A stretch of DNA of 46,590 nucleotides from an uncultured Candidatus Peribacteria bacterium (GTDB lineage Bacteria > Patescibacteriota > Gracilibacteria > UBA4473): NCBI GenBank assembly GCA_964344165.1, contig CAYFMH010000002.1:1-46590 (forward strand). The letters are read 5' to 3'. The position numbers and the translations under genes were made by a program. Shown piece by piece: positions 39,167 through 45,460 of this stretch. The first letter of the stretch is position 1, and every line of letters begins with the position of its first letter. The notes beneath the pieces were generated by a model, which was not told the DNA's origin, made no database searches, and worked only from the letters and a program-made list of their open reading frames with translations.

Positions 39167-39235
39167 AATGTAGAGGGGGTGAAATGTATTTTTACCTATT
39201 GGTTAATTGTTTTTTGCAAAAAGTCAATGAAAAAC

Positions 39236-39264
39236 TTGACTTATCTATATTTTTTGTTTATAAG
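39236..39264 (+). promoter_or_regulatory. Sigma70-like promoter for the 39296-45290 operon
   Basis: TTGACT (39236-39241), 17-nt spacer, TATAAG (39259-39264), 32 nt upstream of the ATG. Confidence 0.4.
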
Positions 39265-39295
39265 TTGGTCGTAATTATTTAAAAATTTTTTTTAA

Positions 39296-42608: not shown

Positions 42609-45290
42609 ATGACAAAAAATCCTATCTCGAAATTAGAAATGGCCTTCAGAGCGCTAGATGAAATCGCTCGAGAAAATGAAGCAATATCTCATTTGGGGGC
42701 AGAAGGCCCAAATACTGACTTAATAAAATCGACTCAAGAGAAATTAACTCAAGAGGTAAGAGAGATTGCCCAAAACATGAAAGTAACTAAGGCAGTCACT
42801 GATGTGATTTTATCTCAGGAGGAGATTGGTGATTTTGTCGTTGGTCTCCAAGAACTTATAACCGAAGGAATAAGATTACAAGAAGAAAAAGTATTCCTTC
42901 AGAGGATAAAGGCAAGGGTTGGGAAATTAGGAAGTCACTCTTCTTTTATCGGGTCAAATAGACCAGAAGGAGAAAAATCAACGGCTGGAGGAAGCATAAA
43001 GGCAGTGTTTGGTGAGATTGGAGACTTAGTTCGAAAAATAAGGCGAAAAGAAGGTAGAGAGACGGAAGTTCGACCAGAAATCAATAAAAGAAAGGGTTTA
43101 TTAGCAGCTCTTCGTTCCTTGGAATCGTTAGAAAACATCGAGGGAGATTTGCCTAGCGAAATTGAATTTGAAGAAAATCGAGAACTTTTTTCTGAAATAA
43201 AACGGAATATAAGAGATATACATAGAAAATATAAAGAAAAAATTGAAAAATTTATAGATGGCTTTTTAGATTCAGCAGAAGGAAAAGTTCTGGATGAATG
43301 TAAAGATCTCGGATCTTCTTTAGATAGCATTGGATTTGACCACGAATTAATCGTATGGAGTAAAAGTATAATAACTGAACGAATTACTTGTTTAGAAGTA
43401 GAAGATAAATTTACTCGTAAGCAGGAAAAACTTGCCCAGTTAATGCAAAAAAATGTGTGGGAACAATCTGGAGCACTCCCTTTGAGACAAATTGTTTCTA
43501 TGCTTCGGGATATGGCAGGAATCCCAGCTATTTTGGGAGAAATGGAAGCTTTAACTGGCAGTTCTCAACCTACGGTTCATCCAAAAAATCAACACAGAGT
43601 AGACACTCTAAACCAAGGATTTCAGGAGGAGCAGGAAGGGATAGAATCGTTTTTAAGCAAAAATGTCATTTCAAAAATCAGCATGATTACTTCTCAAATA
43701 AGAGAAGAAGTAGAAAGGTTAAAAAAAGAATATGCAACTCAAAGTGAGGCAACTCCGTCTGATAAAATAAAAGTCCAAATCAATGAAAAACTCCCTCATG
43801 AATCAGATATAAGAGCCCGACTAGAAACATTAGAACAGATAGGATGGGCAGCACTAGCTCCTGAAATTGATAGAATAAGTGCTTCATGGAGTGAGTCTTT
43901 AGAATCTCTTAATTTTTCTATCCAAAGAACCCCATTAGCTCTTTTTGATGAAGAAAATATAACAAGAATAGAGTCTCTTATGGAAACAAAGAAACAATCT
44001 GATGCTGTTATGACTGATTTTCAGGCAAAAAAAACAGAAACAGAAGAGGCAATATCTTCTTTGAGTGCTCTAACAGAAGGAAGAATTGGCGAATGGGAAG
44101 CTTTTCAAGCGGAAGTTAAGGAATTTCTTGATTCTGTTAAGGTTAACCCCCAAATTAATCCCAAAAGTTTTCAAGTCCCTGGTCACATTGTCGTAAACGG
44201 CATGGTTTCTTTTTCTAGTTTGAATCTAGATAGAGAGAAAATAGACACTCGTTTGGCGAATGGGAAAAGATGGAAACAGGGAGAACAATTAGTTTTAAAT
44301 ACTGGTGCTTTTGGGTGGGGGTGCGATCTTTTATCAGACATTGCCCAACAAAGTTATCATTTGTTACCAGGGAGCAGTTCTGCTCCTGGATTAGAAGAGA
44401 AGGGCAGTGCGAACCCTCTCCAAGAAGAAAGTCCTGAACCTTCTCTCGCAGGATCCAGAGATACTTGTGCAGAAGATATTTATCCAGATACATATCTAGA
44501 TCCTTATATAGTAGAGCTTGCGGTAGGAAATGCTAGAGCTGCGGATGCCGTTAATAAGGCGGTAGAGGTAGCTGCTTTTGCAGGACAGAAGTTTCGTGAT
44601 AGATTAAGAGAGGGGAACAATCTTAGACTTGCAAATCCTCAACGAGGAGAACTAAAAATATTTAGGCAAAAATTGGATGGGATAAAAGGAGAAAAAGACT
44701 CTTTTGAAGTTGCGATAAAAACTTTTCAAGATACGCTAACAGGCGTTGGAACTGATTTGTTTTTTACCCTTCCTTTATCTGATTTGTCATCTAATTTTAA
44801 TCCCGACATCTATGATATAACTCCTCCAAATCAGGCCGATATTAACCTTTTGAGACATAAAGCAGGAGAAATCGTTTGGAGGCTATTGGAGGATAGAAAC
44901 GAAACAGGTCTTGATTTCCCCCCAGAACTGGATGTAGAGGAAATAAAAAGCAAAGGATATAATAATATTTTAGATTATTACTTAGTTTTGAAAAAAAGTG
45001 ATGAAAGAGGAGAAAGACCTCCTGAAATAAATACTATCATTGTAGAACAGGCACTAAGAAAAGCCATGCTAAAACAGTTAAGACTTGCGGCAGCACAAGT
45101 AGATGAATCAAGAGAAATGGATAAATTTACTTTTTACTTCAAAAACTTCTTCAAAATGGTGATAGCGATGGGAAATCTTGTTCAAAAAGAACATTTAGGC
45201 TTTCACTCAGGACATCCTTATCAAAACATTCCTAGAGGTTGTGAAAAAGCAGTTATATGGGAGGATGCAGACAGAAGAAATGCAGCTTAA
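42609..45290 (+). CDS. Hypothetical 893-aa soluble, acidic, coiled-coil-rich protein
   Basis: Starts 25 nt after the upstream stop with the same AT-rich pre-start context (ttttttaaATG). No TM segment or recognisable motif. Confidence 0.8.
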   Translation: MTKNPISKLEMAFRALDEIARENEAISHLGAEGPNTDLIKSTQEKLTQEVREIAQNMKVTKAVTDVILSQEEIGDFVVGLQELITEGIRLQEEKVFLQRIKARVGKLGSHSSFIGSNRPEGEKSTAGGSIKAVFGEIGDLVRKIRRKEGRETEVRPEINKRKGLLAALRSLESLENIEGDLPSEIEFEENRELFSEIKRNIRDIHRKYKEKIEKFIDGFLDSAEGKVLDECKDLGSSLDSIGFDHELIVWSKSIITERITCLEVEDKFTRKQEKLAQLMQKNVWEQSGALPLRQIVSMLRDMAGIPAILGEMEALTGSSQPTVHPKNQHRVDTLNQGFQEEQEGIESFLSKNVISKISMITSQIREEVERLKKEYATQSEATPSDKIKVQINEKLPHESDIRARLETLEQIGWAALAPEIDRISASWSESLESLNFSIQRTPLALFDEENITRIESLMETKKQSDAVMTDFQAKKTETEEAISSLSALTEGRIGEWEAFQAEVKEFLDSVKVNPQINPKSFQVPGHIVVNGMVSFSSLNLDREKIDTRLANGKRWKQGEQLVLNTGAFGWGCDLLSDIAQQSYHLLPGSSSAPGLEEKGSANPLQEESPEPSLAGSRDTCAEDIYPDTYLDPYIVELAVGNARAADAVNKAVEVAAFAGQKFRDRLREGNNLRLANPQRGELKIFRQKLDGIKGEKDSFEVAIKTFQDTLTGVGTDLFFTLPLSDLSSNFNPDIYDITPPNQADINLLRHKAGEIVWRLLEDRNETGLDFPPELDVEEIKSKGYNNILDYYLVLKKSDERGERPPEINTIIVEQALRKAMLKQLRLAAAQVDESREMDKFTFYFKNFFKMVIAMGNLVQKEHLGFHSGHPYQNIPRGCEKAVIWEDADRRNAA

Positions 45291-45419
45291 TGCCTTTCTT
45301 AATTATATTCCATGAGCACTCTTAGTTTCCTCTGTAGAACATCATGTTAAAGCTCTAGCAAAAACATAATCTCCTGTATAAAGACTGTTTGAATAAAAAT
45401 TTTATTCAGCAAGTATTTT

Positions 45420-45460
45420 GAGACACTCCTTTTTTATAGTGTCTCATTTGTCTCATTTTT
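45420..45460 (+). terminator. Hairpin plus T-rich tail after the 893-aa gene
   Basis: gagacact-ccttttttat-agtgtctc (8-bp perfect stem) followed by atttgtctcattttt. Confidence 0.45.

What the first reader, a model, noticed from the sequence alone, without database searches (positions are those of the whole stretch)
39167..45460. Operon of two giant uncharacterised proteins (1095-aa 4-TM + coiled-coil; 893-aa soluble coiled-coil) driven from a divergent promoter region
About 6 kb, or 13% of the window, encodes two proteins with no motif I can assign: no P-loop, HExxH, nuclease or peptidase signature.

- Protein 1 has a soluble N-terminal region of about 100 aa with an HTH-like segment (GATPALIERYFPGISDKQASDIL), three closely spaced hydrophobic helices, a loop of about 250 aa, a fourth TM helix, and a helical tail of about 600 aa.
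- Protein 2 follows after 25 nt and is acidic and coiled-coil-rich.

Both start codons share an unusual context with no SD, (t)ttttttaaATG. A good TTGACT-N17-TATAAG promoter precedes the pair, and a Cys-rich 178-aa gene is transcribed divergently from the same 130-bp region. A membrane anchor with a very long tail is superficially reminiscent of ZorA-type or membrane-tethered sensor/effector proteins, but no partner domains are present. The pair directly abuts the phage-derived block.
Basis: partly seen in the sequence, partly recalled or inferred. Interest (0 to 1): 0.75.

Follow-up and report, generated by a model that had tools for sequence, protein, structure and literature searches.

The report
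Two large orphan genes beside prophage remnant
Two large adjacent genes in a Peribacteria (CPR) genome fragment are real and probably co-transcribed, but they match no known protein family and are missing from the nearest relative's assembly, so their function cannot yet be assigned.

Summary
ORFs at 39296-42583 (P1, 1095 aa, four TM helices) and 42609-45290 (P2, 893 aa, soluble) are intact and 25 nt apart. They share an exact start context, and a hairpin terminator follows P2.

Pfam, NCBIfam, PADLOC, PHROGs, PDB sequences and phage and plasmid tblastn gave nothing for either protein.

A full HMMER scan of 1.84 billion proteins found two weak relatives of P1, one of them from Gracilibacteria. 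Both share its layout: TM helices, a 250-320-aa outside loop with a Gly-rich motif, a fourth TM helix, then a helical tail. No relative of P2 was found, though P2 never had a full HMMER scan.

The pair looks accessory:
- GC3 is 0.25, against about 0.44 for housekeeping genes.
- No orthologue is on record from the closest Peribacteria assembly.
- Eleven viral contigs carry the neighbouring methylase-terminase-recombinase cassette, and none carries the pair.

- "Coiled-coil-rich" is overstated; only short heptad segments occur.
- Starts without an SD are normal in this genome.
- The ZorA, MotA and tape-measure tests were not met.

My best guess, with low confidence, is a moron-like cassette acting at the membrane in phage exclusion. 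Interest is moderate.

The parts
39221..39242 (.). Perfect 7-bp inverted repeat AAGTCAA-N8-TTGACTT overlapping the -35-like hexamer; possible operator
   Evidence: not tested for significance or conservation, because no related intergenic region exists to compare
39236..39264 (+). Promoter-like TTGACT-N17-TATAAG, 31 nt upstream of the P1 start
   Evidence: Read from the sequence. The consensus scan finds no excess of promoter-like sites in this region. Function is inferred, not shown.
39296..42583 (+). P1: 1095-aa polytopic membrane protein, one of three known members of an unnamed family
   Evidence: ORF; four TM helices; no HMM hits; two weak relatives, P0003 and P0004, in 1.84e9 proteins, aligning along the same order over the core
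39296..39622 (+). P1 N-terminal domain (aa 1-109), predicted cytoplasmic; not significantly conserved in relatives
   Evidence: Positive-inside counts; DUF433 match at E = 0.21 only; similarity to the P0004 N-terminus is not significant (27 of 300 shuffles)
39623..39955 (+). P1 TM1-TM3 (aa 110-220), with a K/R-rich TM2-TM3 loop and a conserved [DE]-x-[PT]-N-A at the outer end of TM3
39956..40696 (+). P1 predicted extracytoplasmic loop (aa 221-467). It holds the most conserved family motif, E-x2-G-x3-T-x5-G-P-x3-A then G-x-T-x-W (aa 276-305, nt 40121-40210), and further shared motifs near TM4 (G-x-YPNF, PIEV-x-E, KN-x-VEL; consensus wording, few columns are invariant)
   Evidence: Alignments A1 and A2; topology inferred from the positive-inside rule
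40697..40753 (+). P1 TM4 (aa 468-486), the strongest hydrophobic helix
40754..42583 (+). P1 cytoplasmic helical tail (aa 487-1095), ending A-R-K-A-A. Only its first ~130 aa are conserved in relatives.
   Evidence: Low-confidence AF2 secondary structure; BLAST limits; tail-to-tail similarity not significant; C-terminus
42609..45290 (+). P2: 893-aa soluble, acidic, predicted helical protein with no relative found, ending R-R-N-A-A
45409..45461 (+). Intrinsic-terminator-like hairpin (core 9-bp stem at 45419-45427 / 45438-45446) followed by a T-rich tail
   Evidence: RNA fold -12.4 kcal/mol, z = -3.2 against shuffles. The P1-P2 gap has no comparable hairpin (z = +0.5).
38630..39166 (-). Divergent 178-aa gene (7 Cys, poly-Lys C-terminus) with the same low GC3 as P1 and P2; possibly part of the same acquired block
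   Evidence: no HMM hits; no relative in the related viral contigs

Best explanation
**Shown**
- P1 and P2 are two real protein-coding genes.
- P1 belongs to a very small, uncharacterised family. Only two other members were found among 1.84 billion protein-cluster representatives. One is from a Candidatus Gracilibacteria MAG and the other from a metagenome contig whose organism I could not identify.
- No relative of P2 was found.

**Inferred from sequence**
- The two genes form one operon in a Candidatus Peribacteria (CPR) genome.
- P1 has its N-terminus and C-terminus in the cytoplasm. The first ~110 aa are cytoplasmic, followed by three TM helices. A loop of about 250 aa lies outside the membrane and carries the family's conserved Gly-rich motif. 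A fourth TM helix and a ~600-aa helical cytoplasmic tail follow.
- P2 is a cytoplasmic helical protein specific to this lineage.

**Supported by composition and absence from relatives**
- The pair is accessory, horizontally acquired DNA with the layout of a phage 'moron'. It appears to have its own promoter and has its own terminator.
- Its GC3 is far below that of its surroundings.
- It sits at the outer edge of a degraded phage-like element.

**Inferred only (low confidence)**
- The cassette works at the cell membrane in a conflict role, such as superinfection exclusion or abortive infection.
- The conserved outside loop of P1 would be the sensing or blocking surface. The variable cytoplasmic tail would dock P2 as scaffold or effector.
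- The shared C-terminal R-x-A-A of P1 and P2 could put both under control of a cytoplasmic protease, as a ClpXP-type ssrA-like degron would. This last point is speculation from general knowledge.
For: **Genes and operon**
- ORFs, chance probability and codon-position GC.
- 25-nt gap with no hairpin in it, and a terminator after P2.
- Identical 11-mer at both starts, found nowhere else in the window.

**Family**
- Library-wide E-values of 3.4e-5 and 2.1e-4 for P0003 and P0004.
- The match to P0003 runs in the same order over about 500 aa. Both relatives show the same TM-loop-TM-tail layout and shared motifs.
- P0004 is annotated as from Candidatus Gracilibacteria. The host is Peribacteria, judged from an 88%-identical MltG.

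**Topology**
- The TM2-TM3 loop has 10 K/R in P1 and 8 in P0004, and the other flanks fit N-in/C-in.

**Accessory status**
- GC3 is 0.25 for P1, P2 and the 178-aa gene, against 0.42-0.49 for housekeeping genes.
- Proteins of the close relative's assembly are in the 5.8-billion-cluster database, yet P1 and P2 hit only themselves there.
- Homology with the relative stops at the MltG stop codon, and that contig ends 108 nt later.

**Phage edge**
- TerL, TerS, two methylases and a serine recombinase lie next door.
- The same cassette occurs in viral contigs: four of the 11 carry all of it, the others only part. None of the 11 contains a P1 or P2 relative.
- In L002 the P1-family gene also lies divergently next to a phage gene, an SU10-type adaptor (E = 8.7e-8).

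**C-terminal R-x-A-A**
- Only P1 and P2 among 32 window ORFs end this way, and P0004 ends ARHAA.

**Circumstantial**
- A 2025 preprint reports serine recombinases as markers of defence islands (PMC12632615).
Against: - There is no direct evidence for any function.
- PADLOC defence models give nothing for P1, P2, P0003 or P0004.
- No recognisable effector domain or catalytic motif is present.
- The partner is not conserved. P0004 has no co-directional partner, and P0003 is followed by small unrelated ORFs.
- In L001 the family member is flanked by housekeeping genes (carB, a DHH-family gene), with no phage gene visible.
- The promoter has no statistical support.
- The relative is a MAG whose contig breaks at this very site, so absence there is not proof.
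- P2's orphan status rests on a word-indexed search, not a full HMMER scan.
- Low GC3 is shared by other orphan genes in the window outside the island, so it may partly reflect fast-evolving lineage-specific genes rather than transfer.
Confidence: 0.35

Rival explanations
1. A host envelope or cell-architecture module. P1 would be a membrane-anchored scaffold and P2 its cytoplasmic partner, in the manner of membrane-tethered organisers such as RodZ or EzrA. They would serve a lineage-specific cell-biological or episymbiosis-related role unrelated to phages, and lie beside the phage remnant by coincidence.
For: - The family is found in two related CPR classes, Peribacteria and Gracilibacteria.
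- In L001 it is flanked by housekeeping genes.
- CPR genomes carry many large lineage-specific membrane proteins (general knowledge).
- Most of P1's mass is a helical cytoplasmic tail.
- MltG, a cell-wall enzyme, is the immediate neighbour.
Against: - No orthologue is on record from the closest relative's assembly, whose proteins are in the database.
- Only three family members exist among 1.84e9 representatives, which is too sparse for a core function.
- GC3 differs from that of housekeeping genes.
- The partner is not conserved.
Confidence: 0.2
2. Surviving virion genes of the degraded prophage. P1 would be a tape-measure or ejection (internal core) protein that inserts into the target membrane, and P2 a second large internal or tail protein.
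For: - The size, predicted helical content and hydrophobic helices resemble tape-measure and ejection proteins (general knowledge).
- The pair is adjacent to TerS and TerL.
- The L002 relative sits beside an SU10-type head-tail adaptor.
Against: - No PHROGs or Pfam tape-measure or ejection-protein hit, and no tblastn hit in 50,697 phage records.
- No relative in IMG/VR or in the 11 viral contigs sharing the packaging cassette.
- I identified no portal, capsid or tail gene in the window.
- The pair is divergently oriented, with its own promoter-like site and terminator.
- The positive-inside pattern fits a resident membrane protein.
- Two intact ORFs of 3 kb are unlikely leftovers when all other structural genes are gone.
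Confidence: 0.12
3. A Zorya-like or MotA/ExbB-like ion-driven stator, with a long tail that signals into the cytoplasm.
For: The only resemblance is a membrane anchor with a long cytoplasmic helical tail, located in accessory DNA.
Against: - No MotA_ExbB or ZorA model hit at E up to 1.
- No ZorB/MotB-type partner with a single TM helix and a peptidoglycan-binding domain among the neighbours, and no ZorC or ZorD.
- The tail lacks a long continuous coiled coil.
- P1 has a 250-aa outside loop that, as I recall, these stators lack.
Confidence: 0.03
4. Non-functional or decaying selfish DNA: ORFs that are open but no longer under selection.
For: The proteins are orphans, have low GC3, and lie at the edge of a degraded element.
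Against: - Open frames of 1095 and 893 codons in 37% GC DNA are not expected by chance (P of about 1e-38 and 1e-31) and would not stay open for long without selection.
- The P1 core is conserved with distant CPR relatives, including its motifs and the C-terminal AR[KH]AA.
- The start contexts and terminator are well formed.
Confidence: 0.03

Closest known systems
Phage morons / prophage-edge exclusion cassettes such as lambda RexAB (4-TM RexB plus soluble RexA)
   Same: - A small cassette at the edge of phage-derived DNA, with its own promoter-like site and terminator and a base composition unlike its neighbours.
- One four-TM membrane protein plus one cytoplasmic partner.
- Absent from related phages.
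   Different: - The proteins are several times larger.
- I made no direct sequence comparison with RexA or RexB. The resemblance is organisational and recalled from general knowledge.
- No exclusion phenotype is known.
Zorya ZorA (and the MotA/ExbB/TolQ stator family)
   Same: A polytopic membrane anchor followed by a very long helical cytoplasmic tail, located in accessory DNA.
   Different: - No MotA_ExbB or ZorA HMM match.
- No ZorB/MotB partner, and no ZorC or ZorD.
- Only short heptad segments.
- A large outside loop between TM3 and TM4.
Phage tape-measure and ejection proteins (e.g. lambda gpH, T5 Pb2, T7 gp15/gp16)
   Same: Large, predicted helical, with hydrophobic helices, and next to packaging genes.
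   Different: - No PHROGs, Pfam or phage tblastn match.
- No tail module nearby.
- Not present in related viral contigs.
- Divergent orientation with its own signals.
Transmembrane receptors of MCP / sensor-kinase topology
   Same: The TM, outside helical domain, TM, then long cytoplasmic helical region of P1 aa 202-1095 mirrors their topology.
   Different: - No family at all at E up to 1 beyond four chance-level matches, so no HAMP, MCPsignal, HisKA or HATPase domain.
- There are two extra N-terminal TM helices.
- No signalling partner is recognisable.
Uncharacterised relatives P0004 (MFA6917909.1, Candidatus Gracilibacteria MAG, 1048 aa) and P0003 (metagenome contig, 611 aa)
   Same: True though distant homologues (21-26% identity over the BLAST-aligned core stretches). 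They share the same TM-loop-TM layout and motifs, and P0004 shares the C-terminal AR[KH]AA.
   Different: - Tail length varies: 609 aa in P1, 445 aa in P0004 and 242 aa in P0003.
- The tails and N-termini cannot be aligned significantly.
- Neither relative has a P2-like neighbour.

Membership tests
Zorya (ZorA/ZorB) | ZorA has a MotA/ExbB-type TM domain recognised by ZorA or MotA_ExbB profiles | tested here: not met
   No PADLOC hit at E up to 1. No Pfam MotA_ExbB hit at E up to 1.
Zorya (ZorA/ZorB) | An adjacent ZorB (single TM plus peptidoglycan-binding domain) and ZorC/ZorD or other effector genes | tested here: not met
   P2 has no TM helix. The neighbours are a 178-aa Cys-rich protein, a 213-aa protein and MltG, and none matches Zorya models.
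Zorya (ZorA/ZorB) | A long continuous coiled-coil tail | tested here: inconclusive
   A crude heptad heuristic finds only 28-56-aa segments. The AF2 models are too poor to judge (pLDDT 41 and 38).
Phage tape-measure / ejection proteins | A match to tape-measure or internal-virion-protein profiles, or to phage genomes | tested here: not met
   PHROGs gave 0 families and Pfam none. tblastn against phages found no match. IMG/VR scans found none.
Phage tape-measure / ejection proteins | Location inside a tail or virion gene module, and conservation in related phages | tested here: not met
   I identified no portal, capsid or tail genes in the window. Eleven viral contigs sharing at least part of the packaging cassette lack P1 and P2 relatives.
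Phage moron (accessory cassette in a prophage) | Its own promoter and its own intrinsic terminator | tested here: inconclusive
   The terminator hairpin is supported (z = -3.2). The promoter-like site is present but is no more than chance would give.
Phage moron (accessory cassette in a prophage) | Base composition different from flanking genes, and absence from related phages | tested here: met
   GC3 is 0.25, against 0.29-0.42 for the phage block from the serine recombinase to the ParB-methylase, and 0.42-0.49 for housekeeping genes. Absent from L004-L014.
Phage moron (accessory cassette in a prophage) | Lies within the boundaries of a prophage | tested here: inconclusive
   The pair abuts a degraded cassette of methylases, TerS, TerL and a serine recombinase. 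No att sites could be defined, and the relative's contig ends at the junction.
Known anti-phage defence systems (PADLOC-DB v2) | Any component protein matching a defence-system model | tested here: not met
   No hit for P1, P2, the 178-aa or the 213-aa protein. None for P0003, and only a chance-level LmuB match (E = 0.039) for P0004.
MCP / sensor-kinase receptors | HAMP, MCPsignal, HisKA or HATPase domains | tested here: not met
   Pfam at E up to 1 lists none.
Unnamed P1 family (P1, P0003, P0004) | N-terminal TM helices (three in P1; fewer pass the hydrophobicity cut-off in the relatives), a 250-320-aa loop with E-x2-G-x3-T-x5-G-P-x3-A and G-x-T-x-W, then a further TM helix and a helical tail | tested here: met

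The most novel reading that the evidence does not exclude
P1 and P2 could be a previously unseen kind of membrane-anchored anti-phage or exclusion system, known so far mainly from CPR bacteria. The conserved outside loop of the P1 family would detect or block phage DNA entry. The long cytoplasmic tail would recruit a lineage-specific helical partner (P2). Both proteins would be kept at low levels through a shared C-terminal R-x-A-A degron until infection stabilises them.
Probability: 0.12. Interest if true: 0.7.

Novelty: categorically new. Interest (0 to 1): 0.4.

Why it matters
**If the pair is a working module**
- It would be a protein family, and perhaps a system, with no link to anything characterised.
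- It comes from CPR bacteria, a group in which few phage-defence or cell-envelope systems have been characterised and which is hard to culture.
- The P1 family gives a concrete handle for experiments: a conserved outside motif, a defined topology and a conserved C-terminal tetrapeptide.

**Limits on the claim**
- Large orphan proteins are common in CPR genomes.
- Nothing found here makes a long-standing question testable.
- "Categorically new" is meant only in the weak sense that no known family or system fits. It does not mean a new system has been demonstrated.

Tried and rejected
**Searches that found nothing**
- HMM libraries (Pfam, NCBIfam, PADLOC, PHROGs) for P1, P2 and their neighbours gave only chance-level hits.
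- The word-indexed search of 5.8e9 protein clusters returned self-hits only for P1, for P2 and for the three-sequence core profile.
- PDB sequence searches with P1, P2 and profile A2 found nothing.
- tblastn against phages and plasmids found no match.
- Pattern scans of genome, metagenome and viral collections with the A2 profile, and viral scans with P2, P0003 and P0004, found no relative.

**Structure prediction**
- AlphaFold2 single-sequence models were unusable: pLDDT 41 for P1 and 38 for P2.
- Foldseek of the P1 model against PDB gave 0 matches at E <= 0.001 and TM-scores (normalised to the query) of at most 0.12. I did not run it for P2.

**Tests of internal or paralogous similarity**
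- P2 against the P1 tail: not significant (13 of 500 block shuffles).
- P2 against the 1475-aa neighbour of P0004, and against the small ORFs after P0003: nothing.
- P1 tail against P0004 tail: not significant (22 of 300).
- Internal repeats: none.

**Attempts to define the island**
- I looked for att-like direct repeats between the tRNA-Ser flank and the MltG flank and found none convincing.
- An MltG query of metagenomes, meant to find an empty site, returned nothing.
- The one genomic relative ends 108 nt past MltG.

**Literature**
- Searches turned up nothing on this family.

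
Full report
**1. What is in the sequence**

The two ORFs are exactly as reported: 39296-42583 (+, 1095 aa, P1) and 42609-45290 (+, 893 aa, P2), separated by 25 nt.
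- With the local base composition, a stop-free frame of these lengths has a chance probability of about 1e-38 and 1e-31. Both show the GC1>GC2>GC3 gradient of coding DNA.
- TGA, TAG and TAA all end genes in the window, so the standard bacterial code applies.
- P1 has four hydrophobic helices (aa 110-130, 154-172, 202-220, 468-486). P2 has none.
- Both proteins are acidic, with pI 5.0 and 5.2.
- Neither contains a Walker A, HExxH, CxxC, GxSxG or similar motif.

**2. Transcription and translation signals**

- TTGACT-N17-TATAAG is present at 39236-39264, 31 nt before the P1 start.
  - Its -10 lacks the conserved final T.
  - Promoter-like sites in this AT-rich stretch are as frequent as in shuffled sequence (18 against 17.3). 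The promoter is therefore plausible but unproven.
- A perfect inverted repeat, AAGTCAA-N8-TTGACTT (39221-39242), overlaps the -35.
- The P1-P2 gap holds no credible hairpin (z = +0.5).
- After P2 there is a 9-bp-stem hairpin followed by a T-rich tail at 45409-45461 (-12.4 kcal/mol, z = -3.2).
- The exact 11-mer TTTTTTAAATG occurs only twice in 46.6 kb, at the two start codons.
- Starts without an SD are not special to this pair. Almost no gene in the window has one.
- Taken together, a single P1-P2 transcript is the most economical reading. This is inferred, not shown.

**3. Organism and surroundings**

- The search for homologous proteins gives 46,590 bp, the window's own length, as the longest contig carrying P1 and P2, source NCBI. 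The window is therefore probably a whole contig.
- Its MltG is 88% identical in protein, and 77% in DNA, to that of an 'uncultured Candidatus Peribacteria bacterium' MAG. The host is therefore a CPR bacterium of the phylum Peregrinibacteriota.
- Positions 1-27 kb carry housekeeping genes: PNPase, RecF, Lgt, AlaRS, KhpB and a V-ATPase subunit I.
- After tRNA-Ser (27210-27299) comes a stretch with no housekeeping genes. On the minus strand, from high to low coordinates, it reads:
  - a 178-aa Cys-rich gene
  - a 213-aa gene
  - a ParB-methylase
  - a second methylase
  - TerS
  - TerL
  - a staphylococcal-nuclease-type gene, which lies on the plus strand
  - a large serine recombinase
  - two low-GC orphan genes of 290 and 784 aa
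- P1-P2 diverge from the 178-aa gene and run up to the convergent MltG gene at 45525-46526.

**4. The phage block and whether P1-P2 belong to it**

- The order ParB-methylase, methylase, TerS, TerL, serine recombinase recurs in IMG/VR contigs. L004 has TerL at 53% identity, and its recombinase homologue scores E = 1.9e-185. L005, L011 and L013 also carry the whole cassette.
- In L004 and L005 further sizeable ORFs follow the recombinase. I did not identify them. The window's 784-aa and 290-aa ORFs have no relative in any of the 11 contigs.
- In the window I identified no portal, capsid or tail gene. The block therefore looks like a degraded prophage or satellite-like remnant, with a nuclease gene inserted.
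- None of the 11 viral contigs that share at least part of this cassette encodes a relative of P1, P2, or the 178-, 213-, 290- or 784-aa proteins.
- Where DNA upstream of their ParB-methylase is available, it carries small ORFs, nearly all co-directional, and no divergent giant gene.
- P1-P2 are therefore not a conserved part of this phage lineage.

**5. Homology**

- For P1 and P2, Pfam, NCBIfam, PADLOC and PHROGs return only chance-level matches or nothing.
- PDB sequences give nothing, and tblastn against phage and plasmid collections finds no match.
- In the 5.8-billion-cluster protein set, both proteins hit only themselves.
- The exhaustive HMMER scan of 1.84 billion representatives, run for P1 only, found two weak relatives:
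  - P0003: 611 aa, E = 3.4e-5, matching P1 residues 126-593 in the same order.
  - P0004: 1048 aa, E = 2.1e-4.
- Pairwise BLAST confirms both. P1 core against P0003 gives E = 2.7e-13 over 517 columns, and against P0004 E = 2.8e-8.
- The three proteins share one layout:
  - TM helices with a K/R-rich TM2-TM3 loop
  - a conserved [DE]-x-[PT]-N-A at the outer end of TM3
  - a 250-320-aa loop with E-x2-G-x3-T-x5-G-P-x3-A followed by G-x-T-x-W
  - motifs near the last TM helix (G-x-YPNF, PIEV-x-E, KN-x-VEL; these are consensus wordings, and few of the columns are invariant)
  - TM4
  - about 130 conserved residues, then a tail of variable length
- Tails and N-termini are not significantly alike. 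Even so, P1 and P0004 both end AR[KH]AA.
- P0004 is annotated 'hypothetical protein' in a Candidatus Gracilibacteria MAG. P0003 comes from a 56% GC metagenome contig.
- Further scans with the three-sequence profile found nothing more.
- No relative of P2 was found anywhere, and it is unrelated to the genes next to P0003 and P0004.
- Caveat: P2 never had the exhaustive HMMER scan.

**6. Topology and structure**

- Positive-inside counts put the N-terminus, the TM2-TM3 loop (10 K/R in P1, 8 in P0004) and the tail in the cytoplasm, and the large loop outside.
- AlphaFold2 without an alignment gave mean pLDDT of 41 (P1) and 38 (P2). The models are useful only for suggesting that both proteins are largely helical with a few linkers.
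- Foldseek on the P1 model gave no match at E <= 0.001.
It marks 30% of P1 and 18% of P2, only in 28-56-aa pieces, about twice the shuffle level.
- There are no internal repeats.
- These are helical proteins with short coiled-coil-like stretches. They are not long coiled-coil rods.

**7. Accessory or core?**

- GC3 is 0.25 (P1), 0.245 (P2) and 0.235 (178-aa gene). Housekeeping genes have 0.42-0.49, and the phage block from the serine recombinase to the ParB-methylase has 0.29-0.42.
- Proteins of the close Peribacteria relative are present in the protein collection, yet no P1 or P2 orthologue is found there.
- DNA homology with that relative stops at the MltG stop codon, and its contig ends 108 nt further on. 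That pattern is typical of a strain-variable junction.
- The evidence favours an accessory, acquired cassette. It is not conclusive, because the relative is a fragmented MAG.
- Context of the relatives is mixed:
  - P0003 lies divergently next to an SU10-type phage adaptor gene (Pfam E = 8.7e-8, above the curated cut-off).
  - P0004 lies between carB and a DHH-family gene, divergent from a 1475-aa orphan.

**8. An unexpected shared feature**

- Of 32 ORFs in the window, only P1 (…ARKAA) and P2 (…RRNAA) end in R-x-A-A. The Gracilibacteria homologue ends …ARHAA.
- A conserved extreme C-terminus on otherwise unalignable tails, shared with the unrelated partner, suggests a common recognition signal.
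- By analogy with C-terminal Ala-Ala degrons such as the ssrA tag recognised by ClpXP (my own knowledge, not tested), this could be a proteolysis signal. It could equally be a docking motif.

**9. Interpretation**

- The firmest statement is this: P1-P2 is a real, probably co-transcribed, accessory two-gene cassette at the edge of a degraded phage-like element. It encodes a polytopic membrane protein of a tiny uncharacterised family, two of whose three known members come from CPR bacteria, and a soluble partner with no relative found.
- Its layout matches that of a phage moron:
  - a terminator of its own, and a promoter-like site
  - deviant base composition
  - absence from related phages
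- In the P1 family the membrane-proximal and outside parts are conserved, while the cytoplasmic tail and partner vary. Two of three loci touch phage genes.
- On that basis my best guess is a membrane-level conflict function, either superinfection exclusion or abortive infection (confidence about 0.35).
- A preprint linking serine recombinases to defence islands is weak circumstantial support (PMC12632615).
- Rivals, with the reasons against each:
  - A host envelope or architecture scaffold (0.2). It is absent from the relative and too rare for a core role.
  - A leftover tape-measure or ejection protein (0.12). All tests failed.
  - A Zorya/MotA-like stator (0.03). The membership tests were not met.
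  - Decaying DNA (0.03). The long intact ORFs and conserved core argue against it.
- The confidences do not sum to 1. The remainder is functions I cannot name.

**10. Verdict**

- The interpretation 'two large uncharacterised proteins in an operon next to phage DNA' stands, with three corrections:
  - The proteins are not coiled-coil-rich.
  - The SD-less start is normal here.
  - The promoter is unverified.
- No known family or system fits, so in the formal sense the pair lies outside every known kind.
- Large orphan genes are commonplace in CPR genomes and no function could be derived. Interest is moderate (0.4).

Noticed in passing
window 31034-37812 (- strand); L004, L005, L011, L013: The gene order ParB-methylase, methylase, TerS, TerL, large serine recombinase is a conserved cassette in several IMG/VR contigs. 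The recombinase directly follows TerL (E = 1.9e-185 to L004). In the window a staphylococcal-nuclease/Excalibur gene (32586-33797, + strand) sits between TerL and the recombinase.
   Followed up: partly
window 27210-30679: tRNA-Ser(GGA) is followed by two very low-GC (31-32%) orphan genes of 784 and 290 aa on the minus strand. Neither has a hit in Pfam, PHROGs or PADLOC. They may be a separate island or the far end of the phage-like element.
   Followed up: partly
window 42569-42583 and 45276-45290; P0004 C-terminus (L001 11869-11883): P1 and P2 are the only two of 32 ORFs in the window that end in R-x-A-A (ARKAA, RRNAA). The Gracilibacteria homologue of P1 ends ARHAA. This may be a shared C-terminal degron or docking motif.
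   Followed up: partly
window 35769-35794 and 39163-39188: The TerS gene and the 178-aa gene share a 26-nt stretch spanning their start codons and upstream context (…ACCCCTCTACAT[CT]ATGA on the coding strand, 81% identity). Its meaning is unknown.
   Followed up: no
whole window, e.g. 5883-5890, 15258-15265, 35781-35788: Genes here generally lack Shine-Dalgarno sequences. TTAAYCCC occurs 9 times against 3.9 expected, and three of the nine lie 8-16 nt upstream of start codons (PNPase, the Na/Ca exchanger, TerS). TerL and the 256-aa methylase have the 7-mer TTAACCC at the same distance. This may be an alternative initiation or promoter element.
   Followed up: partly
window 6960-8465 and 12039-12971: Two further ORFs (501 and 310 aa) among the housekeeping genes have the same very low GC3 (0.21-0.24) as P1 and P2, and no Pfam domain. 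Low GC3 may therefore mark lineage-specific orphan genes in general in this genome.
   Followed up: no
L002 3862-4548 (-) next to P0003 at 4905-6740 (+): The P1-family member P0003 lies divergently beside a gene for an SU10-type phage head-tail adaptor (Pfam PF24175, E = 8.7e-8). It is followed by five small ORFs with no Pfam or PHROGs hit.
   Followed up: partly
L001 4143-8570 (-): A 1475-aa orphan protein with no Pfam or PHROGs hit lies divergent from the Gracilibacteria P1 homologue. It is unrelated to P2.
   Followed up: partly
window 20157-21941 (-): The alanyl-tRNA synthetase is only 594 aa. The Pfam matches end with the second additional domain (aa 546-588), so little sequence follows it.
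   Followed up: no
window 45129-45185 (P2 aa 841-859): P2 has one borderline hydrophobic segment near its C-terminus (FTFYFKNFFKMVIAMGNLV, hand-calculated mean Kyte-Doolittle value about 1.2). It could be an amphipathic, membrane-associating helix.
   Followed up: no
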